Shown here: positions 8,530 to 57,362 of the stretch, piece by piece
Numbering within the stretch: the stretch's first letter is position 1
How the letters are laid out: every line of letters begins with the position of its first letter
Source: Alphaproteobacteria bacterium
GTDB taxonomy: Bacteria > Pseudomonadota > Alphaproteobacteria > UBA7887
Direction of reading: 5' to 3'
Assembly: GCA_030739735.1 (NCBI GenBank)
Contig: JASLYQ010000010.1
Coordinates: 16,712-80,711 of the forward strand
Length of the DNA: 64,000 bases
Position numbers and translations under genes: made by a program
The notes under the pieces: generated by a model
What the model was told of the DNA's origin: nothing
Database searches by the model: none
The model's input: the letters and a program-made list of their open reading frames with translations, nothing else

Positions 8530-8691
8530 CTCGCGCGGCCTCCCCCACCGACCAAGCAGAGGGCCAGAGTCGCACACACGCCGGACCCCAGTCCAGAGCT
8601 CAGCAGCTGCCATCTATCGGAGCCCAAGAAAAGCGGCTATGATCGCGCTGCTTTATGCCGGCTGAGGAGACAATCTCGCCGGAGAAATGAC

Positions 8692-42469: not shown

Positions 42470-42612
42470 ACGCTGTAGCCTAGTCCTGACGGCGCCATTG
42501 GGCAAAGGCTTGGCGCGTCACAAAAGCGCAACAAAACCGATACAGAAACCGTAACGCCGGACCGCTACGACCTGCCGTAAGCGACAAGTCGAAGCGTGGA
42601 AGGAGCTTTTGC

Positions 42613-44127: not shown

Positions 44128-44560
44128 ACTAACGAATAAACGTGATAAGGATGAACGACACCATCGACGAGCCGACCCCTCCTTTGCCGGTAATTTTCGT
44201 CTCCAACCTCCACATGGGTTGACGAACTCTAGGGACCGGTGGCCACACCGTTAGTCTTTTCATTTATGTCGATAAAACGATTTCAAAATTTCTGAAATCA
44301 GGCGCTTTCATCTCCTCACGAAAGCGCTCGAAGATCCAGGGCCACGTAACGGGGTTGCCGTTCTGGTCGAGGTATCAGCCCTAGCAGCTAGAGACCCAGA
44401 CGGTGGTCTTCATGGCCTCGCGGATGGCGGAGTTAAAGCGATCGGTGGCCTCACGCTTCGGTGCGATAGCTCATGGGGCGATCCTGGCGCCGAACCGGAG
44501 GAGCGTCAACCTTGGCTTTTGTGGCCATTGGGCGTAACAGTCAAAGGGATGGAGGTGAGC

Positions 44561-45862
44561 ATGGCACGCAGAGAACGCGGACTATTCGAGCTTTACGAAG
44601 ATCCGGAACGGGCCGATGGCGTGATCTTCTCGCGGCGCTCAAAAAGCGACCGCCGCGGCTTCCTCAAAGGTGTCGGCCTCGGTGCTCTGGCGGCAGCTCT
44701 GGGCGCCGGTATTCCCTATGCGCGCTTCATGCCGAGCGGCCTGATCCCGGCGGCGCTGGCCGACGAGAGCAGCTGGGTGACCTTGCTCGCGACAGACGGC
44801 CTAACCGTGCTCAACGACCGGCCGATTAACGCCGAAACGCCGGCCCATCTGCTTGACGACGATATCACGCCCAATCACCGCCATTTCGTGCGCAACAACG
44901 GCATCATGCCCGAAGTCGAGCGTGGCCGCAGCTGGCATTTCACGATCGAAGGCGCGGTCAGCAATCCCATGACCTTCGGCCTCAACAATCTCTCGCGCCA
45001 GTTCGAGGTAGTGCAGAAGGCGCTGCAACTCGAATGCGGCGGCAATGGCCGCGGCGGCTTCAATCCGCCGGCGCGTGGCAACCAATGGACCACCGGCGCG
45101 ATCGGCAATGCGATGTATACTGGTGTGCGTCTTGCCGACGTTTTGAAAGCTGCCGGCGTCAAGGCCGAGTCGGTCTATACCGCGCATTATTCGGCCGATA
45201 CCCATCTTTCTGGCGATTCCGAAAAGTTGCCAATCTCGCGCGGCATGCCGGTCAGTAAGGCCATGCAACCCAATACGCTGCTGGCGTTCGCCATGAATGG
45301 TGAGCCCCTACCCCTGCTACACGGCGGGCCGCTGCGGATCGTCGCGCCGGGCTGGCCGGGCTCGGTTTCGCAGAAATGGCTCAAACGGCTAATAGTGCGC
45401 GACCAGGTGCATGATGGGCCGAAAATGACCGGCAAGTCATACCGTGTGCCGGCGAATCCCGTGGCGCCTGGTACGGATGTCGCCAACGAGGACATGCGCA
45501 TCATCGAATCCATGCCCGTGAAATCGCTGATCACGCGGCCGCAGACGGGGCTGGAGACCGCGCTGGGCACGCCACTCGCCGTGCGCGGCCACGCCTGGGC
45601 CGGCGACCGTGACGTAAGCGCTGTCAATGTAAGCATCGATTTCGGCGCCTCTTGGCAGCACGCCGAGCTCTCCGCGCCGCCGAACGCGGGCTCGTGGCAG
45701 ACCTGGAACACCGAAGTCAGCTTCCCGCAGACCGGCTATTACGAGATCTGGGCGCGGGCGACAGACGACGCCGGACTGATGCAGCCGATGGTCGTTCCCG
45801 GCTGGAACCCGCGCGGCTACCTCAACAACAGTTGCCACCGCATCGCTATCACCGTCGCCTGA
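44561..45862 (+). CDS. sorA: Sulfite dehydrogenase molybdopterin subunit SorA-like (sulfite-oxidase family), Tat-secreted
   Basis: A Tat motif RRGFLKGVGLGALAAALGAG, a sulfite-oxidase Moco domain and a C-terminal dimerisation domain. An SD sequence GGAGGTG lies 8 nt upstream of ATG 44561. The reading frame is open further upstream but without coding signal. Confidence 0.75.
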   Translation: MARRERGLFELYEDPERADGVIFSRRSKSDRRGFLKGVGLGALAAALGAGIPYARFMPSGLIPAALADESSWVTLLATDGLTVLNDRPINAETPAHLLDDDITPNHRHFVRNNGIMPEVERGRSWHFTIEGAVSNPMTFGLNNLSRQFEVVQKALQLECGGNGRGGFNPPARGNQWTTGAIGNAMYTGVRLADVLKAAGVKAESVYTAHYSADTHLSGDSEKLPISRGMPVSKAMQPNTLLAFAMNGEPLPLLHGGPLRIVAPGWPGSVSQKWLKRLIVRDQVHDGPKMTGKSYRVPANPVAPGTDVANEDMRIIESMPVKSLITRPQTGLETALGTPLAVRGHAWAGDRDVSAVNVSIDFGASWQHAELSAPPNAGSWQTWNTEVSFPQTGYYEIWARATDDAGLMQPMVVPGWNPRGYLNNSCHRIAITVA

Positions 45863-46134
45863 TGCAGGGCATTGAGCTGGCCCTGCTGCTGGGACTTGCC
45901 GCCCTGCCCGCCCGCGCCAACGAACCGGTGCCAGGTGAGGAGACGGTCGAAACCCTGTGCATCGCCTGCCATTCAATCGCCATTGTGGCGCAGCAGCGCC
46001 TCTCGCGCCGGGTCTGGGACGAAGTGCTGGTCTGGATGGTCGAGGAACAGGGCATGCCAGCGCTGGACAGAGACCAGCTGTCCGTGGTGCTCGACTATTT
46101 GGCCAAGCACTACGGCCCGGAGGTGCCGCGCTAG
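45862..46134 (+). CDS. sorB: Monohaem cytochrome c, SorB-like electron-acceptor subunit
   Basis: A signal peptide MQGIELALLLGLAALPARA and a single CIACH haem-binding motif. The ATG overlaps the sorA stop (TGATG). Confidence 0.7.
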   Translation: MQGIELALLLGLAALPARANEPVPGEETVETLCIACHSIAIVAQQRLSRRVWDEVLVWMVEEQGMPALDRDQLSVVLDYLAKHYGPEVPR

Positions 46135-46250
46135 AATTTTGTTTGGTCTGGTTTGTCGGCTTCGGTGGCCTTGTGACAACCGCCCTTAAAGCGCGTACCC
46201 ACCTTCGGACCAACCTCGCCCTCGAGCAAAGGCATGTAGCTCAGCAAGCG

Positions 46251-46409
46251 TCATGCCGAGACGCATGCCACGAAGGTCGGCGCATCGCGTTCGTTCCGTT
46301 TCTTTTGCGCCTGACCCTCAATCTTCTCGCGCCGCTCCTGTTCAAAACGCTCGTAGTGCCCAGCGACCTCGGTTTCCAAATCGTGCACGCCGGCGCGGTA
46401 ATATGGCAT
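46251..46409 (-). CDS. Possible small protein (52 aa), uncharacterised
   Basis: Manual translation gives MPYYRAGVHDLETEVAGHYERFEQERREKIEGQAQKKRNERDAPTFVACVSA. It is below the ORF-track cut-off and has no other support. Confidence 0.25.
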   Translation of the reverse strand: MPYYRAGVHDLETEVAGHYERFEQERREKIEGQAQKKRNERDAPTFVACVSA

Positions 46410-46501
46410 CCCTCAAGAGCTGACCCGCGATTATGAAAAAGCTGGCGGCCCAGGCAAGGCTCGATCAGACTGCCGGCGCAAGCGAAAGCGGAGGATCGCT
46501 C

Positions 46502-47116
46502 ATGGCCCTGGCCGTCATCAGTGCCGGCTTCGGCCGCACCGGCACCAACTCGATGAAGACCGCCCTGGAACTGCTTGGCTTCGGCCCCTGCCACCACATG
46601 AAGGAGGTGCGGCCGAGCGAGTCGCAAACGCGCATTTGGCGCGCCATCGCGGCAGGCGACACGCCGGACTGGGATGCTGCCTTTACCGGCTTCAAGGCTA
46701 GCGTCGATTGGCCGAGCGCCTTCTATTGGCGCCAGATCAGCGCCCATTGGCCAAAGGCCAAGATCCTGCTCACCGTGCGCGATTCCGAGAGCTGGTACCG
46801 CAGCATGGAGAACACCATCCTGCAACTAATCAAGCGCAGCACGGACCCCGAGTCGCTCGGCGTGTCGCTGATAGGCAAGCAAGTCTTCGGCGGCGACATC
46901 GAGAACCGCGACACGATCATCGCCGCCTATGAGCGCAATACGGCCGAGGTGCAGGCGGCCTTCGGTCCAGACCACCTGCTCACCTACCATATCGGCGATG
47001 GCTGGGAGCCTTTGTGCGAGTTTCTCGGCGTGCCGGTGCCGGATCAGGACTTTCCGAGAACTAACTCGACCGCCGAATTCCAGCAAATGACAGCCAACAT
47101 AACTAACACAGCCTGA
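46502..47116 (+). CDS. Sulfotransferase family protein (PAPS-dependent-like)
   Basis: MALAVISAGFGRTGTNS is a 5'-phosphosulfate-binding P-loop-like motif. …ILLTVRDSESWYRSM resembles the 3'-phosphate-binding motif. About 205 aa. Confidence 0.6.
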   Translation: MALAVISAGFGRTGTNSMKTALELLGFGPCHHMKEVRPSESQTRIWRAIAAGDTPDWDAAFTGFKASVDWPSAFYWRQISAHWPKAKILLTVRDSESWYRSMENTILQLIKRSTDPESLGVSLIGKQVFGGDIENRDTIIAAYERNTAEVQAAFGPDHLLTYHIGDGWEPLCEFLGVPVPDQDFPRTNSTAEFQQMTANITNTA

Positions 47117-47126
47117 GGATTGAGCC

Positions 47127-47585
47127 ATGAGCGGGATCGCGTCGCGTCACCTTTTCGACATAGAGATTGGCATCCAAGCGCCGCAGTCGCTCGGTGCCAC
47201 CCCGTTCGGCGAGCGCCGTATCGTCTACCTTACCGGCGGCAACTTTACAGGCGACCGGCTCAAAGGGCGCATACTGCCGGGTGGCGGCGACTGGCTGCTT
47301 GGCCGCGCCGACGGCACTATGCAGCTCGACGTGCGCCTGACCCTGGAGACCGACGACAAGGCCTTAATTTTCATGACCTACCACGGCATCCGCCACGGCC
47401 CGGAAGAGGTCACCGCGCGGCTCAATGCCGGTGAGCCTGTCGACCCGTCGGAGTACTATTTTCGCACCACACCTTATTTCGAGACCGCCGCCGAGCGCTA
47501 TGCCTGGCTCAACACTATCTGCACTGTCGGAATCGGCGACCGCACGCCGGAAGGCCCCCGCTACGCGGTCTACGAGGTGCTTTAG
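47127..47585 (+). CDS. DUF3237 (UPF0311) family protein
   Basis: 152 aa with a beta-rich pattern (…FGERRIVYLTGGNFTGDRLKGRILPGGGDWLL…) typical of DUF3237. Confidence 0.5.
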   Translation: MSGIASRHLFDIEIGIQAPQSLGATPFGERRIVYLTGGNFTGDRLKGRILPGGGDWLLGRADGTMQLDVRLTLETDDKALIFMTYHGIRHGPEEVTARLNAGEPVDPSEYYFRTTPYFETAAERYAWLNTICTVGIGDRTPEGPRYAVYEVL

Positions 47586-47701
47586 GCACTCTTGGGCAAG
47601 AGCTGGCTCAGCTCAGCCAGCCGACTGTCTTCGAGAGCAGTGGCGCGGATCGGCACCATGGCGCGATAACCGGAAGCGGTGAGCATAGCAGTACATCAAA
47701 A

Positions 47702-47719
47702 CTGGTCAAGTATTAACAA
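47702..47719 (+). promoter_or_regulatory. Putative operator half-palindrome cTGGTCAAGTATTAACAa in the AT-rich region upstream of the sensor kinase
   Basis: It shares TGGT…TATTAAC with the motif at 50705-50720. The surrounding region is about 45% GC against a genome average of about 63%. Confidence 0.35.
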
Positions 47720-47870
47720 TAATAAATGCAGTTAAATCAATGTAATAATATATCATTATAATGCAAAATTCGAATAAGTTAACCGATGTTTGACGAAAAT
47801 TATCCAGCCCCTCGCAGGCAATTTGTTGCGAGACGAGAAATATTCAGTCAGCACGCAGCTTGACAGATTT

Positions 47871-47885
47871 GGCTGATATGAACCA
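47871..47885 (+). promoter_or_regulatory. Putative operator GGCTGATATGAACCA, 37 bp upstream of the histidine-kinase start
   Basis: 13 of 15 identical to GGTTGATATTAACCA at 50706-50720. Confidence 0.4.
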
Positions 47886-47921
47886 GTTTGTAGGCCATTG
47901 CACATTTACGGATGAAAAACA

Positions 47922-49376
47922 GTGGCTGCCCTCCGCTCCCTACATAGCCTACAGCTGATCCACGGCCTGGCGCTGGTGCTGCTTGTCGGCATCACCGGCA
48001 TCGCCGGCACGGTCGGGCTGGTGCTAAGCGAGCGCTGGTCGGCGGAAGCCCTGCGCATCGACAGCCTGTTGCGGCTGGCGGAAGAAGCACGCGGCGACCT
48101 CTATCGTCAGACCAAGGAGCTTTTCGACTATCATTTTCTCAACGATCCGGATGCCGCTGAGGAATACCGTGTTTACGGCGAGGCGCTGGCGGCCAAGCTG
48201 GCAGAACTCGATCGCCTGGCCAACAAGCCCGAAGAGAAAGCCGTCATTACAGGGCTGATAACCGCCCAGGAAGCCGCGCGCATCGATGCCGATGCGATCA
48301 TGGCGCGCGAGAGCGGTGGGTTCGACGATGCGGAGAAGCTTGCTCTTCTTGATACCGAACTCGAGGTTGGCAGCCTTGCGGCGGTAGAGGCTGCATTAGA
48401 CCGGGCAGCAAGAGAGTTTTTGCAGGCCCGCGGCGACCTGCAACAGCGGGTCTCACGTCTATCTACCATCGGTTTCGGGGTACTGCTCCTGGTGCTGATT
48501 GCCGCCGCCGGCCTTCTCCTTTATGCGCGCGGCATCATGCAACGAGCCTTCATCGCGCCGTTGTCCGAGTTGCTGCAAGCGCTAGCAGCCTTTGGCGCCG
48601 GGCGCCTGGATAGCCCGGTTGAAGAGCGCGGCGCAGCCGAGATGGTAACGCTGCAACGCGCTATCAATGCCATGACAGACGAAGTGGCGCAAAGCCGCAT
48701 GGCGTTAGTGCGCAGCGAGAAGCAAGCGGCGTTAGGCGCGCTGGTGCCGGTGGTCGCGCACAACATCCGCAATCCGCTTGCCAGCATCCGGGCCACGGCC
48801 CAGGTGCTGCCCGACGCGTCCGACGAGGCGGCTAAGAGCAAGGCGACAAAGGATATCCTCAGCGCCGTCGACCGGCTGAATGCCTGGCTGACCTCGCTGC
48901 TCTCCTATCTCGACCCCGGCGGCGCCCACCGCAAGGCCGGAAGGTTGGCCACTTGCGCCGACACAGCAATCTCTCTGCTTGCGGCCAAGCTCACCGAAAA
49001 AGAGGTCACGGTGACTCGCCAGGCCTGGGACGACGGTGGCAAGGTCTCACTCGACGCCAATCTGATGGAACAAGCAATCTACGGCTTGCTGGTCAATGCG
49101 GCGGAAGCCTCACCTCAAGGCGGACGGCTGAAGTTGACGGCTGGAAGTGACGAGACCATGAGCTGGCTCTCGATTAGCGATCAAGGCAGCGGGTTGCCCT
49201 TCTCCCCCAGCGCCGACGGCGTCATTCCTGGCCCCACCACCAAGGCCTGGGGCAGCGGCCTCGGCATCCCGTTCGCCTACAAGATCTGCGAGTTGCATGA
49301 CGGAACTTTGCAGTTCGACGACGTGGATGGCGGTGGCACGCGCGCCACCATCTCTCTGCCGGCGGTGGCGGCATGA
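47922..49376 (+). CDS. Sensor histidine kinase (two TM helices, periplasmic helical sensor, HAMP, HisKA, HATPase_c)
   Basis: TM1 about aa 15-38, TM2 about aa 186-208. H-box VVAHNIRNPLASI. G1/G2 boxes …DQGSGLPF…GSGLGIP. Its stop overlaps the start of the response regulator. Confidence 0.85.
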   Translation: MAALRSLHSLQLIHGLALVLLVGITGIAGTVGLVLSERWSAEALRIDSLLRLAEEARGDLYRQTKELFDYHFLNDPDAAEEYRVYGEALAAKLAELDRLANKPEEKAVITGLITAQEAARIDADAIMARESGGFDDAEKLALLDTELEVGSLAAVEAALDRAAREFLQARGDLQQRVSRLSTIGFGVLLLVLIAAAGLLLYARGIMQRAFIAPLSELLQALAAFGAGRLDSPVEERGAAEMVTLQRAINAMTDEVAQSRMALVRSEKQAALGALVPVVAHNIRNPLASIRATAQVLPDASDEAAKSKATKDILSAVDRLNAWLTSLLSYLDPGGAHRKAGRLATCADTAISLLAAKLTEKEVTVTRQAWDDGGKVSLDANLMEQAIYGLLVNAAEASPQGGRLKLTAGSDETMSWLSISDQGSGLPFSPSADGVIPGPTTKAWGSGLGIPFAYKICELHDGTLQFDDVDGGGTRATISLPAVAA

Positions 49377-50683
49377 GCGGCGCCACGATCCTCGTCGTCG
49401 ATGACGAGACCCCGTTTGCCGAGGCGGTGGCGATGCGGCTCGCACGCGACGGCCACGGAGCGAGTGTAGCCGGCACGCTCGGAGAGGCGCGCGCGCATCT
49501 TGCCAAGGCCGAGACAGATCTCGTTTTGCTCGACATGCGCCTGCCAGACGGCACCGGCCTCGATTTGCTGAGCGAGATCGCCGGCGTCTCGGTGGTCGCG
49601 GTAACAGCCTTCGGTGATCTTGATAACGCCGTCGAGGCCATGAAGCGCGGCGCCGTCGACTATTTGCGCAAGCCCCTCGACCTCGACGAGTTGGCGCTGG
49701 TTGTCGAGCGGGTGCTGGAATCGCACAACCTTCGCCGCCGCCTCGGCTACTCAGTTGAGCGCGAAGCCCATGCAGGCAGCGCCACGGCGCTGCTCGGCGA
49801 CAGCCCGGCAATGTGCGTAGCACGTCAGGAGATCGAAACCATCGCCGCGGTCCACACAGACGGCGACGCCCCTAACCTGATGCTGCTCGGCGAGACGGGC
49901 ACAGGCAAGTCCGTTGCGGCGCGGCTGGTGCATGAGCTGGGGCCCCGTGCGGGCCGCCCCTTCGTGCGTATCGACTGCATCGGCCTGCAACACCTCGATG
50001 CCGACCGTGAGCTATTCGGTGACAACGGAACGCCGGGCCTGCTGGAAGCGGCCGAGGATGGCAGTCTCTTTCTCGACGAGGTCTGCGAGCTGTCGCCAGA
50101 CCTTCAGGCCAAGCTGCTGACGGTGTTAGAGAACCGTGCCCTGCGCCACGCGGATGGCCGGCGCGAGATGCCCTTGCGGGCGCGCATCATCGCCGCCAGC
50201 AACCGCGACATCGCTGCCGAGGCCAGCGGCGGGCGCTTCCGCGCCGACCTCTATTATCGCCTCGATGTGCTGCATATCCAACTACCGGCCTTGCGGGATT
50301 GCCCCGGCGACGCGGTGCTTCTAGCCAGGCATTTCGTTGGTGAGACCGCACAGCGCTACGGCCGCGAGACGCCGCGACTGTCGAAAGCCGCGGCAGCGGC
50401 CTTAGGACGCTACGACTGGCCCGGCAATGTGCGCGAGCTTGCCCATGTCATCGAGCGCGCTGTGCTGCTCGACCGCAGCGGTGCCTTAGAGCCCTCCGCC
50501 CTGCCACTCACTCAAGCTGTGGCAAAGGCACGGCCTGAGTCCGTCAGTTCGCTGGCCGATACCGAACGCAGCGCCCTCGAACAGGCGCTTGCGGAAGCCG
50601 GCGGCAACGTCTCCGCCGCGGCACGGACGCTCGGCATCACCCGCATGACCATGCGCTACCGTAAGCGCAAGCATGGTTTATGA
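49373..50683 (+). CDS. NtrC-family response regulator (REC, AAA+ sigma-54-interaction-type domain, Fis-type HTH) with a degenerate GAFTGA motif
   Basis: REC domain ILVVDDETPF…DLVLLDMRLPDG. Walker A GETGTGKS. Instead of ESELFGHEKGAFTGA the sequence reads RELFGDNGTPGLLEAAEDGSLFLDE, so GAFTGA is absent. C-terminal HTH NVSAAARTLGITRMTMRYR. Confidence 0.85.
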   Translation: MSGATILVVDDETPFAEAVAMRLARDGHGASVAGTLGEARAHLAKAETDLVLLDMRLPDGTGLDLLSEIAGVSVVAVTAFGDLDNAVEAMKRGAVDYLRKPLDLDELALVVERVLESHNLRRRLGYSVEREAHAGSATALLGDSPAMCVARQEIETIAAVHTDGDAPNLMLLGETGTGKSVAARLVHELGPRAGRPFVRIDCIGLQHLDADRELFGDNGTPGLLEAAEDGSLFLDEVCELSPDLQAKLLTVLENRALRHADGRREMPLRARIIAASNRDIAAEASGGRFRADLYYRLDVLHIQLPALRDCPGDAVLLARHFVGETAQRYGRETPRLSKAAAAALGRYDWPGNVRELAHVIERAVLLDRSGALEPSALPLTQAVAKARPESVSSLADTERSALEQALAEAGGNVSAAARTLGITRMTMRYRKRKHGL

Positions 50684-50704
50684 TATCCGAAACGGGACGG
50701 AATT

Positions 50705-50720
50705 GGTTGATATTAACCAT
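50705..50720 (+). promoter_or_regulatory. Near-perfect 16-bp palindrome TGGTTGATATTAACCA (putative operator/UAS site 1)
   Basis: TGGTTGAT/ATTAACCA arms. Located in the AT-rich spacer between the regulator gene and the TonB-dependent receptor gene. Confidence 0.45.
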
Positions 50721-50732
50721 ATTCGAGTTTAA

Positions 50733-50752
50733 ATTGGTTCATTTAAACCAAT
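50733..50752 (+). promoter_or_regulatory. Perfect inverted repeat ATTGGTT-N6-AACCAAT (putative operator/UAS site 2)
   Basis: Its centre lies exactly 30 bp (three helical turns) from the centre of site 1, and the two sites share the TGGTT…AACCA half-sites. About 120 bp upstream of the receptor gene ATG. Confidence 0.45.
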
Positions 50753-50871
50753 AAATATCTTTTAAAACAATAGCTTGTGTAAAATTTCTAACGTTACTGT
50801 TTGACGCCTATGCCGGACGCCTTTACACCCTTCCCTCAAAGAAGACGATCTATCCTCGGGAGGGATATTCT

Positions 50872-53361
50872 ATGCCTTTTCTGGCCCACCGGGCTGGCCG
50901 GCCACTCGCGGCGGTCGCCACTGTTATTCTTGTCACCACCACTGCTGCCTGGAGCCAGGACGCACCCGTTTCCGTGCTGCCCGACATCGAGGTCATCGGG
51001 ACCACGCCGCTGTTGGGTACCGGCACCCCGATCAACAAGGTGCCCGGCAACCCACAGACGCTGTCCGAGGACGCCATCGAGCGCTATCCCAGCAATCAGT
51101 TGATCGATCAACTGCACAGCCAACTCAACAGCGTCACCGTTGTCGATGTCCAGAACAGTACCTATCAGAAAGATATCCGCTATCGCGGCTTCGCAGCCTC
51201 ACCCCTGCTCGGTGAATCCCAGGGCATCGCAGTGTTTCAGAACGGTGTCCGCATTAACGAGGCTTTCGGAGACACAGTGCAGTGGGACCTGATCCCCGAG
51301 CCCGCCATCCGTAGCATGAATCTGGTCAACAACAATCCCGCCTTCGGCCTCAATGCACTGGGCGGTGCGATCGCCATCGACATGCATGACGGCTTCAGCT
51401 TCCAGGGCATGGAGGCAGAAGCTCACGGTGGCTACTGGGAGCGCTGGGGCACGGAAATGCAGGCGGGCTGGGCCAACGAGAATTTTGCGGCTTACGTCGC
51501 CGCCGATCGCCAGAACGACGGCGGCTGGCGCAACGAATCCGAATCTGAGTTGTCCCGGCTTTACGGTGACGTTGCGATGGCGGGCGACGAATTCCAGATC
51601 AATTTTAATTTTACTTATGCCGACACAGACCTGATCGGCAACGGCCCGTCCCCAGCGGAACTCCTCGCCGCCAACCGGCGCGCCGTGTTCACCACACCAG
51701 ACACGACGGAAAACGAAATATTCTTCTTCCAAGGCAATGGCAGTTACGACGTCAGCGACATCGCTTCGGTTCAGGCCAATGCCTATTTCCGCCGCATCAC
51801 GCGCTCGACCCTGAACGGCGACGAGATTGCCGGCGAACAATGCGATCGCGGCGTTTTACTCGCCACATTCGCGGCTGACGGCAATCTGGCTGGCACCGTC
51901 GGCAACGGCGGCGCGGTGACCCTCAACCCAGAAAACTATCTCTGCGTCGAAGAAGATGACCCGACCCTACTCATCGACCAGAACGGCAACGCGATCGCGG
52001 CCTCCGCCGCCACTCCAGGCGCCGAGAACACCACGTCCACCCAGACCATGACCTATGGCGGCGCCATTCAGGAGGTCATTGAGGACGCCCTTTTCGGCCT
52101 CGACAACACGTTTATCTTCGGTACCGCACTCGACTTCTCGCAGACCCGCTTCCACAACGAGCAGCATGTGGGCTCGATCAATCTTGCGCGGGCGATCGTT
52201 AATACCGGCTCGCCTATCCTCAATGTGCAAGGCTATACGTCAGCCGCCGCCGGCGGCTCTCTGGTCGCCGGAGAAGCCACGCCGACGCAAATCAAGAACA
52301 CCACAGCGAGCCTCGGCATCTACGCTACCGACACGCTTGATGTCACAGATGCGCTCAGTGTCATGCTCGCTGGGCGCTTCAATCGCACCTCAAGCGATAC
52401 CAGCGACGAATTCGTATACGATGCGGTACGTGCCGGCAGCTTACAAAGCTCTAGCATCTTCAGCCGCTTCAACCCGGCGGTGGGCTTCACCTATGCGGTC
52501 GAGCCGCTAAACTCCACGGTCTATGGCAGCGCCGGCGAGAACACGCGCGCCCCGACACCAGCCGAGCTCGGCTGCGCCGATCCGAACGCGCCTTGCCGCT
52601 TCCCAAATGCTTTTCTGTCCGATCCGCCTCTCGACCAGGTGGTTTCGCGCACCTTCGAGGCCGGCGCGCGTGGCGCCATTCCCGGACTGCCCAACGATCT
52701 TGACGTGAACTGGAACTTCAGCGTCTACACTACGACCAACTTCGACGACATTCTCTTCGTCTCAGGCGGCACTGGGCTTGGCGCCGGCTTTTTCAAGAAT
52801 GTCGGTAACACCCGCCGCCGCGGCATCGAGGCAGGTGCCAACGGGCGCTGGGACCGCCTCGGCTTCTACGCCAATTACGGCTTCATTGAGGCGACCTTCG
52901 AATCCGAGTTTACCGTGGCCTCGACCAACCATCCCCTGGCAGCATCGCTCGGTGGCGGCCAGAGCATTCCGGTCTCCAAGGGTGATAACATCCCCGGTGT
53001 GCCAGACCACACGCTCAACCTCGGCGTCGATTACGCGCTCACCGAGGACTGGGTTCTGGGTGGCACCATGGTCACACGCTCGGGCGTCTATCTGCGCGGT
53101 GACGAGGGCAATCTGCTGCCGCGCACCAACGGCTATACAGTGTTCAATACCCACACTACCTACGTGCTTAGCGATTATGTGGAGGTCTTCGGGCGCATCG
53201 AGAATCTCTTCGACTCCAACTACGAGACCTTCGGCGTGCTCGGCGAGATTGGCAACGACACGCCGATCTACGAGCTACCAAACGGCATTACCAATCCCCG
53301 ATATCTCTCGCCTGGACAGCCATTCGCTGCCTATGTTGGCGTGCGCATAAGGTTGAACTAA
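50872..53361 (+). CDS. TonB-dependent outer-membrane receptor
   Basis: A signal peptide (…TTAAWSQDAP) and a plug domain with a TonB-box-like PDIEVIGT, then an 829-aa barrel with alternating beta-strand patterns. Confidence 0.8.
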   Translation: MPFLAHRAGRPLAAVATVILVTTTAAWSQDAPVSVLPDIEVIGTTPLLGTGTPINKVPGNPQTLSEDAIERYPSNQLIDQLHSQLNSVTVVDVQNSTYQKDIRYRGFAASPLLGESQGIAVFQNGVRINEAFGDTVQWDLIPEPAIRSMNLVNNNPAFGLNALGGAIAIDMHDGFSFQGMEAEAHGGYWERWGTEMQAGWANENFAAYVAADRQNDGGWRNESESELSRLYGDVAMAGDEFQINFNFTYADTDLIGNGPSPAELLAANRRAVFTTPDTTENEIFFFQGNGSYDVSDIASVQANAYFRRITRSTLNGDEIAGEQCDRGVLLATFAADGNLAGTVGNGGAVTLNPENYLCVEEDDPTLLIDQNGNAIAASAATPGAENTTSTQTMTYGGAIQEVIEDALFGLDNTFIFGTALDFSQTRFHNEQHVGSINLARAIVNTGSPILNVQGYTSAAAGGSLVAGEATPTQIKNTTASLGIYATDTLDVTDALSVMLAGRFNRTSSDTSDEFVYDAVRAGSLQSSSIFSRFNPAVGFTYAVEPLNSTVYGSAGENTRAPTPAELGCADPNAPCRFPNAFLSDPPLDQVVSRTFEAGARGAIPGLPNDLDVNWNFSVYTTTNFDDILFVSGGTGLGAGFFKNVGNTRRRGIEAGANGRWDRLGFYANYGFIEATFESEFTVASTNHPLAASLGGGQSIPVSKGDNIPGVPDHTLNLGVDYALTEDWVLGGTMVTRSGVYLRGDEGNLLPRTNGYTVFNTHTTYVLSDYVEVFGRIENLFDSNYETFGVLGEIGNDTPIYELPNGITNPRYLSPGQPFAAYVGVRIRLN

Positions 53362-54005
53362 TGACAGAGATAGGGGTCCTCGCCAGCACCCTCGACTTGC
53401 TTGCCAAAGGCGGGCCAGTGATGATGGTGCTACTTGCCGTCTCAGGCCTGGCGGTCCTGATCATCGTTGCCAAGCTGCTACAATTCGCGCGTCTCGGCCT
53501 CGGCAACCTGAAGTTTGTCGATCCGGCCATGACGGCGCTTGGGCGCAGCGAGCCGCAAGCAGCCCTGGCGCTGCTCGCTAAACGCAGGCACCCAGTGGCA
53601 CGAGCGATGGAAAGCGCGATCACCACCAGCACTGATTTCGGGCTCACGGCCGAGGATCGAGACGCCGAGATCAGTCGCGTCGGCAGTGCCCAGATCCGCG
53701 ATCTCGAAAGCCACCTGCGTGGCCTCGAGGTGATCGCAAATTTAAGTCCCCTACTCGGCCTGCTGGGCACCGTCATTGGCATGATCGGTGCCTTTGCCAA
53801 GCTTGAAGATGCCGGCTCCAAAGTCGATCCCGCCATGCTCGCCGGCGGCATTTGGGAGGCGCTTCTGACTACCGCTTTCGGGCTCGTCATTGCAATTCCG
53901 GCGTTGGCCGCCTTCTACGTGCTTGAAGGTCGCGTGGAGAGCGTGCGCGCGGTCATGAAAGATGCCGTAACGCGCATTCTAGGAAGCACGGTGGCGAGGC
54001 GCTAA
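53361..54005 (+). CDS. exbB: MotA/TolQ/ExbB proton-channel family protein
   Basis: 214 aa with three TM helices, including the conserved TM2/TM3 (…LSPLLGLLGTVIGMIGAF… …WEALLTTAFGLVIAIPA…). Confidence 0.8.
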   Translation: MTEIGVLASTLDLLAKGGPVMMVLLAVSGLAVLIIVAKLLQFARLGLGNLKFVDPAMTALGRSEPQAALALLAKRRHPVARAMESAITTSTDFGLTAEDRDAEISRVGSAQIRDLESHLRGLEVIANLSPLLGLLGTVIGMIGAFAKLEDAGSKVDPAMLAGGIWEALLTTAFGLVIAIPALAAFYVLEGRVESVRAVMKDAVTRILGSTVARR

Positions 54006-54007
54006 AC

Positions 54008-54415
54008 ATGGATTTTGGCGAGCACGAACGCGCCAAGTCCCAGCTCAGCATCGCGCCGCTGATCGACGTGGTGTTCCTACTGCTAGTCTTCTTCATGCTC
54101 GCTGGCTCGTTTATCCGCCAGACCGCGTTCGATCTGGCGATGGGCCAGCGCCCGTTACCGGGCGAGGCGACGGCCGTGGAAACCGGCCCACTACTGGTCA
54201 GGGTCGCGGACAACGGGCGCATCACCCTCAACGGCCTTGTGCTGCCGCTCGACCAGCTCGGTGGCGAGCTGCTCGGGCGCAGTGACGGCGATGCGGAGCA
54301 CAAGGTGACGCTCCGTGCCGGCGGCGGGGTCGCGGTGCAGCGGTTGGTCTCAGTGATGGATCGCATCACCGGCGCCGGCTTCCACAACATCCGTCTGACA
54401 CCGCCGGATAGCTAG
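54008..54415 (+). CDS. exbD: ExbD/TolR family biopolymer transport protein (copy 1)
   Basis: 135 aa with an N-terminal …IAPLIDVVFLLLVFFML TM anchor typical of ExbD/TolR. Confidence 0.8.
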   Translation: MDFGEHERAKSQLSIAPLIDVVFLLLVFFMLAGSFIRQTAFDLAMGQRPLPGEATAVETGPLLVRVADNGRITLNGLVLPLDQLGGELLGRSDGDAEHKVTLRAGGGVAVQRLVSVMDRITGAGFHNIRLTPPDS

Positions 54416-54417
54416 GC

Positions 54418-54837
54418 ATGAAATTTTCTGGCAGGGAACGGTTGCGCGGCGGCATCAACATGGTGCCACTGATCAATATCGTCTTTCTCCTGCTGATCTT
54501 CTTCATGCTGTCCAGCACACTTGTCACGCCCGACAACCTAGAGGTAACGCTGCCAGAATCCGAGACCGCGCGCGCCGTCGAGAGCCAACCCATCATGCTC
54601 GTCGTCGACAGCCAAGGGCGGATTACCATAAACAATCGCGAGATCCGCGCGGATGAGGTCACCAGTCGGCTGGCTGGGGTTACTGAGACCCATGCCGACG
54701 CCAGCTTGGTGATTAAAGCCGATGCCACGGCAACCTATGCTGAGCTCGGTACCTTGCTACACGCGGCCAAGACTGTCGGCATCGCGCGTATAGCGCTGGC
54801 CACGCGCGAGCCAGACTCTAAGACGACAGCACCGTGA
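54418..54837 (+). CDS. exbD: ExbD/TolR family biopolymer transport protein (copy 2)
   Basis: 139 aa with …NMVPLINIVFLLLIFFML. It is a paralogue of the preceding gene, separated by a 3-nt spacer. Confidence 0.8.
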   Translation: MKFSGRERLRGGINMVPLINIVFLLLIFFMLSSTLVTPDNLEVTLPESETARAVESQPIMLVVDSQGRITINNREIRADEVTSRLAGVTETHADASLVIKADATATYAELGTLLHAAKTVGIARIALATREPDSKTTAP

Positions 54838-56138
54838 GCGGCGTTCGCTCATACGAGTTTATAGCCGCAGCCGTGCTCTCCGGCGTGGTGCATATGGCGG
54901 CCATGACCGGGCTGGTGTTCTACCAGGCGGAGCCTGACGAAGAGGCCCCGGCGCCGATGGTCTATCTTGAGCTTAGCGCTCTCGATACAGATGTGACGGC
55001 GGAAGGCCCTGCCGATCCGGCCATGGCCCCGGCGCCAAGCCAGCTCAGCGAGACGACAGAGCCACTGCCGCCAGATGCTATGACGCCCGTGCCCCTGGCG
55101 CCGTCGCCACCGCCGGAGTTAGCCAAGATCACACCGCCCGAAGACCTTGACGAGCCATCGCCGCCGGACCTCGCGCCCCCTCCCCCGGACGAGGCACCGA
55201 TGCCCGAGCTGGCACCACCGCCGTTGGAGCTGACCGAGATCACACCGCCCGAAGACCTCAGCGAGCCACCGCCGCCGGACCTCGTACCCCCGCCCCCGGA
55301 CGAGGCGCCGATGCCCGAGCTGGCACCGCCACCGTTGGAACTGGCCGAGATCACACCGCCCGAAAACCTCAGCGTGCCACCGCCGCCGGACCTGACCCCG
55401 CCGCCGCCCGAGATCGTGCGCATGCCGGGTCTGGCGCCACCGCCGCTGCGCCTGTTGACAGAAATTGTCTCGCCCGACGATCTCGCCGAGCCACCACCAC
55501 CAGACCTGGCGCCGGCGCCCGAAGTGCTGCGCATGCCCGATCTGGTGCCACCACCATTGCAGAAACTGGCCGATATCGTGCCGCCCGAAGAACTGGCGGA
55601 ACCGCCGCCGCCCGAGACAATGCCGCCGCCGCAGCGCGACGAACTTGTCGAGTTGCCGCGCCAGCGGCCCAAACCAGAGCCGCCGGTACGCCGCGTTGAG
55701 ACACCGCCGTCGCCCGTGGCACAACCCGAGCGCACCCCCCTACCTCCGGTCGAGGAGACGCCACCGCAACAGGTCGCAAGCCTGCCCGCGCCGATACCTG
55801 CTCCCACGGCGCCACCGGGGCCTACCAGTCAGTCGCCGGAAGCGCTCGCAGCCTATGGCGGTAGCTTGTTCCACGCCATCAACACCACGGCCACACGCAA
55901 CTACCCGGCCCGCGCACTGAAACGGCGCCAGGAAGGCGTCGTGCCCATGCGACTGACGATAGACGCCGACGGCGCTCTGGTCTCAGCCATCGTCCTCGAC
56001 AAAAGCGAGGCGCCCTCGCGTCTCATCACGGCGGCACTGAAAGCCGTGCAAAAAGCCGCCCCCTTTCCTGCCTTCAGCAACGACCTCGGCAACGACCAAC
56101 GCCAATTCGACGTCCGCATCGTTTACAAGATTCGCTAG
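54834..56138 (+). CDS. tonB: TonB family energy transducer with an unusually long proline-rich tandem-repeat linker
   Basis: An N-terminal TM (…AAAVLSGVVHMAAMTGLVFY), about five imperfect 37-aa Pro-rich repeats (ELxEITPPEDLxEPPPPDLxPPPPDEAPMPELAPPPL), and a C-terminal TonB domain (…GVVPMRLTIDADGALVSAIVLDKS…). Confidence 0.8.
   Translation: MSGVRSYEFIAAAVLSGVVHMAAMTGLVFYQAEPDEEAPAPMVYLELSALDTDVTAEGPADPAMAPAPSQLSETTEPLPPDAMTPVPLAPSPPPELAKITPPEDLDEPSPPDLAPPPPDEAPMPELAPPPLELTEITPPEDLSEPPPPDLVPPPPDEAPMPELAPPPLELAEITPPENLSVPPPPDLTPPPPEIVRMPGLAPPPLRLLTEIVSPDDLAEPPPPDLAPAPEVLRMPDLVPPPLQKLADIVPPEELAEPPPPETMPPPQRDELVELPRQRPKPEPPVRRVETPPSPVAQPERTPLPPVEETPPQQVASLPAPIPAPTAPPGPTSQSPEALAAYGGSLFHAINTTATRNYPARALKRRQEGVVPMRLTIDADGALVSAIVLDKSEAPSRLITAALKAVQKAAPFPAFSNDLGNDQRQFDVRIVYKIR
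55096..55620 (+). repeat. Tandem repeat of about 111 bp, about 4.7 imperfect copies, inside tonB
   Basis: Nucleotide-level repetition is visible (…gagatcacaccgcccgaagacctcagcgagccaccgccgccggacctcg… recurs with point differences). It encodes the Pro-rich linker. Confidence 0.7.
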
Positions 56139-56211
56139 GCATAACCGGCGACGCAAACCCGGTTGGTGACTTCGCTTAAGGGTCAACCATTTGCGTGGCC
56201 GTTAGCGCCCC

Positions 56212-56943
56212 TCAGTCGTCGCACTCCAGCTCCGCCAGGCGCATCTTGGCCTGGTCCACGACGATGCTTTCGTAGGCGTTCTCGACCGGCAGGGTTGTGG
56301 CGGCGGTGAGCAAGTCCCGGGCCTGAGGGCAGTAGTCGTTGTCGAGCAAGGTCAGGCCGATGGCGTATTCGAGATTGACGCCATTCCTCTCGGGCGCCAG
56401 GGCATAGGCCTTCTCAAAAGCGGTGAGTGACTGCTCCTCATCAGCGTCGTAGAACATCCTCGCCATGAGACTGCCGGCGGCAGAGACGATCTCGGCGTGC
56501 CATGCGCCGAGGCTTAAGAGCGCCGGCACCATGTTCGGGTCGAGCGCCAGCGCCTTGTCGATGGCGCCGCGAGTTAGCTCGGCATAGCCCTCGCTGAGCG
56601 CATCTACGACGCTTATGGTCTGGGCATAACGGCCCATGGCATGGGAATGCTGCAAGTGGGCCTCGGGGTTGTTCGCATCTTGCGCAACGGCTCGCTCGGC
56701 AAGTGCGACGGCGCGGCTGAAAAGAGCTTTCTTGTCGTCCTCCGCCGCCAGGTAATAGCCGTGTAGGGCGAGGGATTCAGCGGCCATCGCCAGGGATGCC
56801 GATGTCGCTTCCGCTTCGCCGAAGTCCGCCGCTTCGAGAAAACGACCCCCATCAAAGGCAGCTTGCACCTCGGGGGAAACTTGTGCCAGCACGGGCGATG
56901 CCACGAGCATCGCCCCAACTACGGCAGCAATCAGGAATTTCAT
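56212..56943 (-). CDS. Secreted alpha-helical (TPR-like) hypothetical protein
   Basis: A signal peptide MKFLIAAVVGAMLVASPVLAQ. The mature part is Ala/Leu-rich and helical with no catalytic motif. Its start overlaps the stop of ridA (operon). Confidence 0.45.
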   Translation of the reverse strand: MKFLIAAVVGAMLVASPVLAQVSPEVQAAFDGGRFLEAADFGEAEATSASLAMAAESLALHGYYLAAEDDKKALFSRAVALAERAVAQDANNPEAHLQHSHAMGRYAQTISVVDALSEGYAELTRGAIDKALALDPNMVPALLSLGAWHAEIVSAAGSLMARMFYDADEEQSLTAFEKAYALAPERNGVNLEYAIGLTLLDNDYCPQARDLLTAATTLPVENAYESIVVDQAKMRLAELECDD

Positions 56944-57362
56944 TCTGTGTCCTCTATGACCGCTTCTGCCTCGATCTCGACTGTCAGCTCGGGCAGCACA
57001 AGCGCGCTCACCTCGACCAGCGTCGAGGCCGGGCGGACGTCGCCGAAATAGCGCTGCCGGATAGGGTTAATACGCGCGCGATCGGCTATGTCAGTGAGAT
57101 AGACCACCACCTTGGTAATTTGCTGCGGCGCGCCACCGGCCGCGCGCAGCACAGTATCGAGATTCTGCATCGCCACCTCGAACTGACCGACCGTATCGGC
57201 CGGAATGCTGCCGTCCTCGGCGATTCCCACGGTGCCGGATATCCAGATGCGATCGCCCGCCCGCGTGGCGTGGCAGTAATGGCTCACCGGCTCATGCTGA
57301 CCCGGAATCATGAAGCGCTCAATCTTGGGCATCAGACCTCCCCTTTGCACGTGGCGCATCAT
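56940..57362 (-). CDS. ridA: RidA (YjgF/TdcF/L-PSP) family reactive-intermediate deaminase
   Basis: …ATRAGDRIWISGTVGIAEDGS… …TKVVVYLTDIADRARINPIRQRYFGD…. The probable start is MPKIERF (57332). Confidence 0.75.
   Translation of the reverse strand: MMRHVQRGGLMPKIERFMIPGQHEPVSHYCHATRAGDRIWISGTVGIAEDGSIPADTVGQFEVAMQNLDTVLRAAGGAPQQITKVVVYLTDIADRARINPIRQRYFGDVRPASTLVEVSALVLPELTVEIEAEAVIEDTE

What the first reader, a model, noticed from the sequence alone, without database searches (positions are those of the whole stretch)
47640..56138. Two-component system with a GAFTGA-less NtrC-family regulator immediately upstream of a TonB-dependent receptor, ExbB, two ExbD paralogues and TonB
A sensor kinase and a REC-AAA+-HTH regulator are co-directional with, and directly upstream of, a complete outer-membrane energised-uptake machine. 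The regulator's central domain retains Walker A (GETGTGKS) but replaces the sigma-54-contacting GAFTGA loop with DNGTPG. I could also find no -24/-12 (GG-N10-GC) promoter in the 190-bp spacer before the receptor gene. This points to an enhancer-binding-protein homologue that activates through sigma-70, as described for Rhodobacter NtrC and HupR. The uptake substrate is not evident from context. Lower-GC regions flank the block.
Basis: partly seen in the sequence, partly recalled or inferred. Interest (0 to 1): 0.55.

Follow-up and report, generated by a model that had tools for sequence, protein, structure and literature searches.

The report
NtrC-type regulator lacking sigma-54 loop
A two-component regulator of the NtrC family has lost the loop it would need to work with sigma-54, and it very probably controls the neighbouring outer-membrane uptake operon through conserved upstream binding sites and an ordinary-looking promoter; regulators of this kind are already known in other alphaproteobacteria, so this is a new example, not a new principle.

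Summary
Seven co-directional genes are present: sensor kinase, REC-AAA+-HTH regulator, TonB-dependent receptor, ExbB, two ExbD and TonB. The kinase starts at 47922, not 47640.

The regulator has a 9-residue deletion that removes GAFTGA (ELFG-DNGTP-GLLE). Its phospho-acceptor and all ATPase motifs are invariant across 31 relatives, and dN/dS is 0.14. The 188-bp spacer before the receptor gene contains no GG-N10-GC at all.

- Two perfect TGGTT-N6-AACCA palindromes lie 31 bp apart upstream of the receptor gene, and a third lies in the kinase promoter.
- The same operator recurs in 5 related loop-less loci.
- It also recurs in a sister clade that keeps GAFT(S/N/G)A and has an orthologous receptor gene.
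- There, −24/−12 promoters follow the palindromes. The loop-less clade has TTGAC-N17-TAnnnn instead.

So the regulator's loop and its target promoter changed together, which supports sigma-54-independent, probably sigma-70, activation. No experiment exists, the presence of rpoN in this genome could not be checked, and the uptake substrate is unknown.

Loop-less enhancer-binding proteins are already established (Rhodobacter NtrC, HupR, Caulobacter NtrC, NtrX, VpsR). This is a new member of a known kind.

The parts
47860..47865 (+). TTGACA, candidate −35 of the kinase-regulator promoter
   Evidence: TTGAC(A/T) followed after 3-4 nt by the palindrome is conserved in the window, L005, L007, L093 and L094. 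Its role as a −35 element is inferred.
47870..47885 (.). Single operator palindrome TGGCTGATATGAACCA, 37 nt before the kinase start codon. Probable autoregulation site.
   Evidence: The same site sits upstream of the kinase gene in L005 (8498), L007 (8467), L093 (4479) and L094 (4496).
47922..49376 (+). Sensor histidine kinase: two transmembrane segments around a ~145-residue periplasmic region with no Pfam match, then HAMP, HisKA and HATPase_c.
   Evidence: The kinase core is closest to AtoS/ZraS, the type that pairs with NtrC-family regulators. The start codon was corrected.
49373..50683 (+). Response regulator with REC, AAA+ and Fis-type HTH domains, lacking the L1/GAFTGA loop.
50021..50035 (+). 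Remnant of loop L1 (residues 217-221, DNGTP), where relatives have HEKGAFT(S/G)Axxxx.
   Evidence: The 9-residue gap shows in the alignments. The AlphaFold model has a tight hairpin at residues 216-221.
50704..50719 (.). Distal operator palindrome TGGTTGATATTAACCA.
50735..50750 (.). Proximal operator palindrome TGGTTCATTTAAACCA, 31 bp from the distal one.
50801..50829 (+). Candidate sigma-70-type promoter of the receptor operon: TTGACG, 17 nt, TACACC.
   Evidence: TTGAC(G/C/T)-N17-TA(A/C)(A/G)nn is conserved in the window, L005, L009, L093 and L094. Its function is inferred and it is not mapped.
50872..53361 (+). TonB-dependent receptor (829 aa) with no N-terminal signalling extension.
53361..54005 (+). 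ExbB (MotA/TolQ/ExbB family).
54008..54415 (+). ExbD paralogue 1.
54418..54837 (+). ExbD paralogue 2.
54834..56138 (+). TonB (434 aa): long proline-rich linker containing a 111-bp tandem repeat, then a TonB_C domain.

Best explanation
The membrane kinase senses an unknown periplasmic signal and phosphorylates Asp54 of the regulator. The regulator is an NtrC-family protein whose sigma-54-contacting loop was deleted in an ancestor of this alphaproteobacterial clade.

The phosphorylated regulator assembles on two palindromes, TGGTT-N6-AACCA, spaced 31 bp apart and centred about 58 and 89 bp upstream of a −35-like TTGACG. From there it turns on a sigma-70-type promoter (TTGACG-N17-TACACC). That promoter drives the operon for the outer-membrane receptor and its own ExbB-ExbD-ExbD-TonB energiser.

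A third, single palindrome lies just downstream of a conserved TTGACA in the kinase promoter, so the system also regulates itself, probably by repression.

Nucleotide binding, and probably hydrolysis, is still needed, because every ATPase residue is conserved.

Shown: gene content, the loop deletion, conservation of the ATPase residues, the conserved operators, and the absence of −24/−12. Inferred: who binds the palindromes, the direction of regulation, the sigma factor, the signal and the substrate.
For: Loop deletion:
- Searches show the deletion.
- The 33 loop-less cluster representatives form one clade in the tree when the loop columns are left out.
- Remnant loops vary in length and sequence, which suggests relaxed constraint.

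An active protein, not a decaying one:
- REC D54, Walker A K179, Walker B D235/E236, sensor I N277, arginines R290/R296 and sensor II R354 are invariant in 31 sequences.
- dN/dS is 0.137 overall and 0.099 in the AAA+ domain against an 81%-identical orthologue.
- The model is confident (pLDDT 84.7). Its AAA+ domain superposes on NtrC1 at about 2 Å, and Brucella NtrX is the top full-length match.

Operators:
- Exact or one-mismatch TGGTT-N6-AACCA matches number 5 in the window against 0.74 expected, and three of them sit in the two promoters.
- Tandem pairs occur 10 times in 14 related loci (234 kb) against 0.07 in simulations. Every pair lies immediately upstream of the receptor or regulator gene.
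- The recognition helix is conserved across both clades.

Promoter swap:
- Sister-clade loci L010, L012, L013, L015 and L016 have −24/−12 elements 85-125 bp downstream of the palindromes.
- Their regulators keep GAFT(S/N/G)A, and their receptor is a full-length homologue (31% identity, E 2e-121).
- Loop-less loci have no −24/−12. In 5 of 7 they have TTGAC-N17-TAnnnn, with operator-to-promoter distances of 58.5, 59.5, 80.5, 80.5 and 91.5 bp. These differ by about 11-bp steps, one helical turn (distances counted by me from the sequences).

Synteny and precedent:
- Kinase-regulator-receptor-ExbB-ExbD-ExbD-TonB is conserved in 7 loci at 55-100% regulator identity.
- Rhodobacter NtrC, Caulobacter NtrC, HupR and VpsR are loop-less and act at sigma-70 promoters.
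Against: - There is no experimental datum of any kind for this family.
- The proposed −10 hexamers are weak (TACACC, TAAGCC), and L007 and L095 fit the promoter pattern poorly.
- Bootstrap support for a single loss of the loop is only 47/100.
- A high-GC subclade close to the query (L008, L099) has neither the palindromes nor an adjacent receptor gene, so the regulon is not uniform across the clade.
- No terminator is predicted between the regulator and receptor genes, so some read-through from the kinase promoter is possible.
- Whether this genome encodes sigma-54 is unknown.
Confidence: 0.65

Rival explanations
1. The regulator is only a DNA-binding repressor or anti-activator. The receptor operon has a constitutive sigma-70 promoter that the regulator shuts off, and the signal relieves this.
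For: At the kinase promoter the palindrome lies immediately after a conserved TTGACA, where a bound protein would block RNA polymerase. Caulobacter NtrC represses several sigma-70 promoters. TyrR is mainly a repressor.
Against: At the receptor promoter the two sites lie about 58-90 bp upstream of the −35-like element. That is enhancer-like geometry, the same as in the sigma-54-using sister clade, and a poor place for simple occlusion. The helical phasing and the weak −10 hexamers fit activation better. Strict conservation of the hydrolysis residues is not needed for a plain repressor.
Confidence: 0.15
2. The palindromes serve mainly autoregulation, or are bound by another protein. The receptor operon is expressed by read-through from the kinase promoter, or from a promoter read by an alternative (for example ECF) sigma factor.
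For: No terminator-like site lies between the regulator and receptor genes. The −10 candidates are poor sigma-70 matches.
Against: No sigma or anti-sigma gene is in the neighbourhood, and the receptor lacks an N-terminal signalling domain. Tandem palindromes sit specifically before the receptor gene in 10 loci from two clades. A TTGAC −35 at 17-nt spacing is the sigma-70 pattern.
Confidence: 0.12
3. The regulator still activates sigma-54 holoenzyme through other contacts, at an unrecognised or distant promoter.
For: The AAA+ machinery and the L2 region are intact. Public annotation calls it 'sigma-54 dependent'.
Against: GAFTGA is essential for the sigma-54 contact, and deletions give sigma-70-dependent proteins. 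No GG-N10-GC exists in the spacer. The sister clade shows what a real −24/−12 looks like at the equivalent position. Remnant loops are unconserved.
Confidence: 0.04
4. The regulator is a decaying, non-functional remnant, and the adjacency is only inherited synteny.
For: It has lost a motif that defines its family.
Against: dN/dS is 0.14. Catalytic and phospho-acceptor residues are invariant across 31 sequences down to 54% identity. Operators and gene order are conserved.
Confidence: 0.02

Closest known systems
Rhodobacter capsulatus NtrC (Cullen, Bowman and Kranz 1996; Bowman and Kranz 1998, as cited in the paper read)
   Same: Alphaproteobacterial REC-AAA+-HTH regulator with the L1/GAFTGA loop deleted. 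It is phosphorylation dependent and activates the housekeeping RNA polymerase, as an enhancer-binding protein according to the title cited. From my own knowledge, not read here, its binding sites are tandem and lie far upstream of the promoter. It needs ATP binding.
   Different: A different orthologous group: the NCBIfam NtrC score is 243 bits against a cut-off of 559. A different regulon, nitrogen genes versus a TonB uptake operon. The deletion arose independently, inside a family whose other members keep GAFT(S/N/G)A.
Caulobacter crescentus NtrC (bioRxiv 10.1101/2023.06.06.543975)
   Same: An 8-residue L1 deletion of similar size. It acts at sigma-70 promoters as both activator and repressor, with ATPase residues retained and required.
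   Different: It belongs to the nitrogen-assimilation two-component system, is not orthologous, and has no link to TonB-dependent transport.
NtrX of Alphaproteobacteria (Brucella abortus structures 5M7N, 5M7O, 5M7P)
   Same: Best full-length structural match to the model. It has a shortened L1 without GAFTGA.
   Different: The NCBIfam NtrX score is 270 bits against a cut-off of 600. Identity is about 31%. Its partner kinase (NtrY) and genomic context differ.
HupR (R. capsulatus), VpsR (Vibrio cholerae), TyrR and DhaR (E. coli)
   Same: Sigma54_activat-domain proteins that lack a functional GAFTGA and work with sigma-70.
   Different: Their input logic differs. VpsR needs neither phosphorylation nor ATP to function; it works together with c-di-GMP. 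TyrR and DhaR are not response regulators and HupR activates in its unphosphorylated form (both from my own knowledge, not read here). Here all ATPase and phospho-acceptor residues are strictly conserved.
Sister clade of GAFT(S/N/G)A regulators next to TonB-dependent receptor genes (Methylophilus, Methylotenera and others; uncharacterised)
   Same: About 46-52% identity, the same operator palindrome, an orthologous receptor gene, and the same enhancer-like site arrangement.
   Different: These keep loop L1 and have −24/−12 promoters. Gene order is receptor then regulator, without the ExbB-ExbD-ExbD-TonB genes directly downstream.
PfeS/PfeR and PirS/PirR of Pseudomonas aeruginosa (from my own knowledge, not tested here)
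   Same: A two-component system placed next to a TonB-dependent receptor gene and inducing it in response to the transported ligand.
   Different: Those regulators are OmpR-type, not AAA+ proteins, and they do not control a dedicated TonB-ExbBD set.

Membership tests
[quoted passage not shown] | AAA+ central domain of the Sigma54_activat type (PF00158) | tested here: met
   PF00158 E 3.2e-36 over residues 141-303. The AAA+ domain of the model superposes on NtrC1, FlrC and PspF at 2-2.5 Å.
[quoted passage not shown] | GAFTGA (or a tolerated variant) at the tip of loop L1, which contacts sigma-54 | tested here: not met
   A 9-residue deletion removes it. No variant occurs elsewhere in the window. 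The model shows only a tight turn at residues 216-221.
[quoted passage not shown] | Target promoter of the −24/−12 (GG-N10-GC) type | tested here: not met
   There is no GG-N10-GC at all in 50684-50871, and nothing scores above 7/11 upstream of the kinase gene. Sister-clade loci do have such promoters.
[quoted passage not shown] | rpoN present in the genome | not testable with these tools
   Only 64 kb of the genome is available.
NtrC-family (group I) response regulators, REC-AAA+-HTH_8 | Receiver domain with phospho-acceptor Asp, AAA+ domain, C-terminal Fis-type HTH | tested here: met
   Response_reg E 1e-20, AAA_lid_14, HTH_8 E 5e-13. D54 is invariant.
NtrC, NtrX, AtoC, ZraR or PEP-CTERM PrsR orthologues | Score above the NCBIfam equivalog cut-off | tested here: not met
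   The best scores, 243-276 bits, are far below the cut-offs of 503-760 bits.
Loop-less, sigma-70-acting enhancer-binding-protein homologues (Rc NtrC, Cc NtrC, HupR type) | L1 deletion together with retained DNA-binding and receiver domains | tested here: met
Loop-less, sigma-70-acting enhancer-binding-protein homologues (Rc NtrC, Cc NtrC, HupR type) | Demonstrated activation or repression of a sigma-70-dependent promoter | not testable with these tools
   Only sequence evidence exists: a conserved TTGAC-N17-TAnnnn downstream of conserved operators.
TonB-ExbB-ExbD energy-transducing system with its outer-membrane receptor | Plug plus 22-strand barrel receptor; MotA/ExbB; ExbD; TonB C-terminal domain | tested here: met
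   PF07715 and PF00593; PF01618; PF02472 twice; PF03544. No NCBIfam equivalog or substrate class was reached.

The most novel reading that the evidence does not exclude
An orthologous enhancer-dependent regulon was rewired as a unit from sigma-54 to sigma-70. The remote tandem enhancer sites, the helical phasing and a fully intact ATPase were kept. This would mean the loop-less AAA+ ring still uses ATP to activate sigma-70 holoenzyme from a distance. The loop-bearing sister clade offers a ready-made natural control for finding out how.
Probability: 0.3. Interest if true: 0.7.

Novelty: new member of a known kind. Interest (0 to 1): 0.45.

Why it matters
How enhancer-binding-protein homologues without the GAFTGA loop activate the housekeeping polymerase is still unclear; for Caulobacter NtrC the paper read says so outright.

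This family offers a matched pair. Two sister clades share the operator and have orthologous receptor genes. One clade has the loop and −24/−12 promoters. The other lacks the loop and has −35/−10-like promoters. That makes the co-evolution of activator and promoter directly testable by loop grafts and promoter swaps.

There is also a practical point. Public annotation labels these proteins 'sigma-54 dependent transcriptional regulator', which is probably wrong for the whole clade. The regulated module, a receptor with its own TonB-ExbB-ExbD2 set, is abundant in marine alphaproteobacterial metagenome bins, and its substrate is unknown.

Tried and rejected
- **Metagenome scan with the kinase-promoter motif TTGACW-N3-4-TGGYTGATATNAACCA.** It found only the contig already held as L007, plus two chance matches inside a coding region of a low-GC organism.
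- **Perfect TGGCACTACCGTTGCA at 8216-8231, minus strand.** It lies inside an ABC-ATPase-like ORF (7867-8613) and encodes NVALPLH, so it is a chance match and no evidence for sigma-54 use.
- **Receptor substrate.** No NCBIfam equivalog, no PDB chain at E ≤ 0.001 by sequence, only generic 'iron complex receptor' names among homologues, no riboswitch or other Rfam family in 42000-57000, and no useful literature.
- **PHO boxes.** A simple TGTCAY-N5-TGTCAY search of the window is not enriched and does not hit the porin promoter. Only L093 and L094 show convincing 11-bp-phased repeats. The phosphate link therefore stays a weak lead.
- **Other degenerate palindrome matches in the window.** Those at 9283 and 30038 are inside ORFs. 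The one at 47604 is part of a hairpin after the upstream gene. None has the GATAT core.
- **First tree.** It was rooted by mistake on a Vibrio protein that is itself loop-less (VpsR-like). It was redone.
- **Class II or MerR-like reading of the kinase promoter.** Considered, but no consistent −10 hexamer was found at the spacings needed (my reading of the sequences).

Full report
**What is there**

The region holds seven co-directional genes with overlapping or nearly abutting ends:
- A sensor kinase at 47922-49376, with two membrane segments around a ~145-residue periplasmic region that has no Pfam match, followed by HAMP, HisKA and HATPase_c.
- A response regulator at 49373-50683, with Response_reg, Sigma54_activat (E 3e-36), AAA_lid_14 and HTH_8.
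- After a 188-bp spacer, a TonB-dependent receptor at 50872-53361.
- ExbB at 53361-54005.
- Two ExbD paralogues at 54008-54415 and 54418-54837, 29% identical to each other.
- A 434-residue TonB at 54834-56138.

That frame is closed by stop codons until the GTG at 47922, and 47586-47921 is an AT-rich intergenic region.

GC falls only at the two promoter-bearing spacers: 0.44 at 47700-47999 and 0.49 at 50700-50999. It does not fall downstream of tonB. So 'lower-GC regions flank the block' is only half right, and the composition does not suggest foreign DNA.

**The loop is really gone and the rest is intact**

HMMER alignments to Aquifex NtrC1 put a 9-residue gap exactly over GAFTGA: ELFG-DNGT-PGLLE against ELFGYEKGAFTGAVSSKEGFFE. 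No GAFTGA-like string exists elsewhere in the window.

Among 120 homologues, 33 cluster representatives at 54-98% identity have the same loss. Their remnant loops vary in length (5-9 residues) and in sequence. The next relatives, at about 50% identity, carry GAFTSA, GAFTNA, GAFTDA or GAYTGA. Published work regards substitutions at these positions as compatible with sigma-54 activation.

With the loop columns removed, the 33 loop-less proteins form one clade nested inside the loop-bearing family, though NJ bootstrap support is only 47/100.

The following residues are invariant across 31 loop-less sequences:
- REC D54
- Walker A K179
- Walker B D235/E236
- sensor I N277
- R290/R296
- sensor II R354

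Against an 81%-identical orthologue, dN/dS is 0.137 for the whole gene and 0.099 for the AAA+ domain.

An AlphaFold model (mean pLDDT 84.7) shows a normal AAA+ fold with L1 reduced to a tight hairpin. Its best full-length PDB match is Brucella NtrX, which itself has a short loop. The AAA+ domain superposes on NtrC1, FlrC and PspF at about 2 Å.

The protein is not an orthologue of NtrC, NtrX, AtoC, ZraR or PrsR. Its NCBIfam scores of 243-276 bits fall far below the cut-offs of 503-760 bits.

**Promoters and operators**

The regulator-receptor spacer has no TGGCAC-N5-TTGC match with up to 2 mismatches, and in fact no GG-N10-GC at all.

It does contain two perfect TGGTT-N6-AACCA palindromes, at 50704-50719 and 50735-50750, 31 bp apart. 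The repeat finder recovered them independently as a 19-nt direct repeat. A third copy, TGGCTGATATGAACCA, lies at 47870-47885, 37 nt before the kinase start codon. The window holds 5 matches to the strict pattern against 0.74 expected.

**Comparative evidence**

The gene order kinase, loop-less regulator, receptor, ExbB, ExbD, ExbD, TonB recurs in seven loci at 55-100% regulator identity.
- A tandem pair of the same palindrome (consensus TTGGCTGATATCAGCCAA) precedes the receptor gene in six of these loci.
- A single copy immediately follows a conserved TTGAC(A/T) in front of the kinase gene in five of them.

The sister clade has the same palindromes, usually in tandem, next to its regulator gene (L010, L011, L012, L013, L015, L016). 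Its regulators keep GAFT(S/N/G)A. Its receptor is a full-length homologue of the window's receptor (31% identity, E 2e-121).

Over 14 loci (234 kb) there are 10 tandem pairs against 0.07 in first-order Markov simulations. Every pair lies directly upstream of the receptor or regulator gene.

**The decisive contrast**

In five sister-clade loci a −24/−12 element follows the palindromes by about 85-125 bp and precedes the next gene:

| Locus | Element |
|---|---|
| L010 | TGGCACGCATATTGCT |
| L013 | TGGTACATTTTTTGCA |
| L015 | TGGAATATATTTTGCA |
| L016 | TGGAATGTTTATTGCA |
| L012 | TGGCACAGAACTTGAT (imperfect at −12) |

None of the seven loop-less loci has such an element (best score 7/11 or none). 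Five of them (window, L005, L009, L093, L094) instead share TTGAC(G/C/T)-N17-TA(A/C)(A/G)nn. In the window this is 50801-50829.

The distance from the centre of the proximal palindrome to the −35-like hexamer is 58.5, 59.5, 91.5, 80.5 and 80.5 bp respectively. These values differ by about one or more helical turns (my count from the sequences).

So the loss of the sigma-54-contacting loop and the replacement of the −24/−12 promoter go together, while the operator, its enhancer-like position and the receptor gene next to it stayed the same.

**Most likely mechanism**

The shown steps are the anatomy described above. The inferred steps are as follows. The kinase senses a periplasmic signal and phosphorylates D54. 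The regulator oligomerises on the tandem palindromes and activates a sigma-70-type promoter for the receptor-exbB-exbD-exbD-tonB operon. This probably needs nucleotide binding or hydrolysis, because the ATPase residues are invariant. It would parallel Rhodobacter NtrC and Caulobacter NtrC.

The single palindrome right after TTGACA in the kinase promoter suggests autoregulation, and by its geometry more likely repression.

I put this at about 0.65. The rivals are:
- a pure repressor (0.15)
- read-through, another sigma factor or another binding protein (0.12)
- residual sigma-54 dependence (0.04)
- a decaying gene (0.02)

**Limits**

- There is no experimental evidence.
- The −10 candidates are weak, and two loci (L007, L095) fit the promoter pattern poorly.
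- A high-GC subclade that is the query's nearest neighbour in the tree lacks the palindromes. L008 has ExbB-ExbD-ExbD-TonB but no receptor next to the regulator, and L099 has none of them.
- Whether the genome has rpoN could not be tested.
- The organism is known only as an uncultured marine alphaproteobacterium from metagenome bins.

**Substrate and signal remain unknown**

The receptor reaches no NCBIfam equivalog and has no PDB relative by sequence. Its homologues carry only generic names, and no riboswitch is present.

A Porin_O_P gene is a conserved upstream neighbour, directly adjacent in L007, L093 and L094, and one locus (L095) has PhoX next to the kinase gene. The porin promoters of L093 and L094 carry 11-bp-phased GTCAC-like repeats that resemble PHO boxes, but the window's copy is weak. 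A link to phosphorus scavenging is therefore only a lead.

**Comparison with what is known**

Enhancer-binding-protein homologues without GAFTGA that act with sigma-70 are well documented: R. capsulatus NtrC and HupR, Caulobacter NtrC, NtrX, VpsR, TyrR and DhaR.

This protein works like them by every sequence criterion available. It fails two defining tests for a sigma-54 activator, the loop and the −24/−12 target. It is not an orthologue of any named member.

I found no paper linking a GAFTGA-less regulator, or an NtrC-family two-component system, to a TonB/ExbBD operon.

Verdict: a new member of a known kind, with a useful natural control in its loop-bearing sister clade. Interest is moderate (0.45).

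Noticed in passing
window 42510-42560 (upstream of the Porin_O_P gene 42613-44127); L093 2788-2850; L094 2577-2640; L007 6670-6720: GTCAC/GACAT/GTAAC-like direct repeats occur at 11-bp spacing with A-rich spacers. They resemble tandem PHO boxes (consensus recalled from memory). They are clear in L093 and L094 and weak in the window. The porin is a conserved upstream neighbour of the two-component system, and L095 has a PhoX phosphatase gene next to the kinase gene. This hints at phosphorus scavenging.
   Followed up: partly
window 55122-55445 (inside tonB): A 111-bp tandem repeat (2.4-2.9 copies, 83-91% matching) encodes the proline-rich linker of TonB and raises local GC to 0.70-0.71. TonB length varies from 396 to 503 residues among related loci.
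   Followed up: partly
window 8216-8231, minus strand: A perfect sigma-54 consensus, TGGCACTACCGTTGCA, lies inside an ABC-ATPase-like ORF (7867-8613) where it encodes NVALPLH. It is a chance match, not a promoter.
   Followed up: yes
window 47680-47860: A stretch of about 180 bp upstream of the kinase promoter is unusually AT-rich (the 300-bp bin 47700-47999 has GC 0.44) and contains overlapping AT palindromes (47738-47770). In the 81%-identical relative L005 the corresponding position holds two extra genes (RidA-like and DUF1330). Its role is unknown.
   Followed up: no
window 44519-47585: A sulfite-oxidase-like molybdoenzyme, a small protein that looks like a c-type cytochrome, a sulfotransferase (Sulfotransfer_4) and a DUF3237 protein lie between the porin gene and the kinase gene in this lineage and in L005. 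In L007, L093 and L094 the porin gene directly precedes the kinase gene.
   Followed up: partly
window 47602-47621: A 10+10 nt inverted repeat, GCTGGCTCAG/CTCAGCCAGC, sits just after the stop codon of the DUF3237 gene. It matches the degenerate operator pattern by chance and has no T-run.
   Followed up: no
L008 and L099 (high-GC relatives, regulators P0015 and P0024): The loop-less subclade nearest to the query in the tree, from organisms with about 69-70% GC, has no TGGYT-N6-ARCCA sites. In L008 the regulator is next to ExbB-ExbD-ExbD-TonB but not a receptor gene, and the receptor homologue P0167 shares that contig length (3,261,019 bp), so it probably lies elsewhere on the contig. In L099 the regulator has no TonB genes nearby at all.
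   Followed up: partly
L059 8001-9362 (Vibrio albus): A distant relative used as an outgroup is itself loop-less (ELFGDMSTQREGMFQ) and is presumably a VpsR-type protein. It is an independent loss of L1.
   Followed up: no
regulator 49373-50683 and its cluster (P0121, P0123, P0124 and others): NCBI annotation names these proteins 'sigma-54 dependent transcriptional regulator'. Given the missing loop and missing −24/−12 promoters, the name is probably wrong for the whole clade.
   Followed up: yes
L016 7737-7929; L010 11478-11725: In the loop-bearing sister clade the palindromes and the −24/−12 promoter can precede the regulator gene itself (L016). In L010 they precede an operon of small unannotated proteins, a periplasmic-binding-like protein and an ABC-2 permease, followed by NosR/ApbE, with no receptor gene. 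The family's targets are therefore not limited to TonB-dependent receptors.
   Followed up: partly
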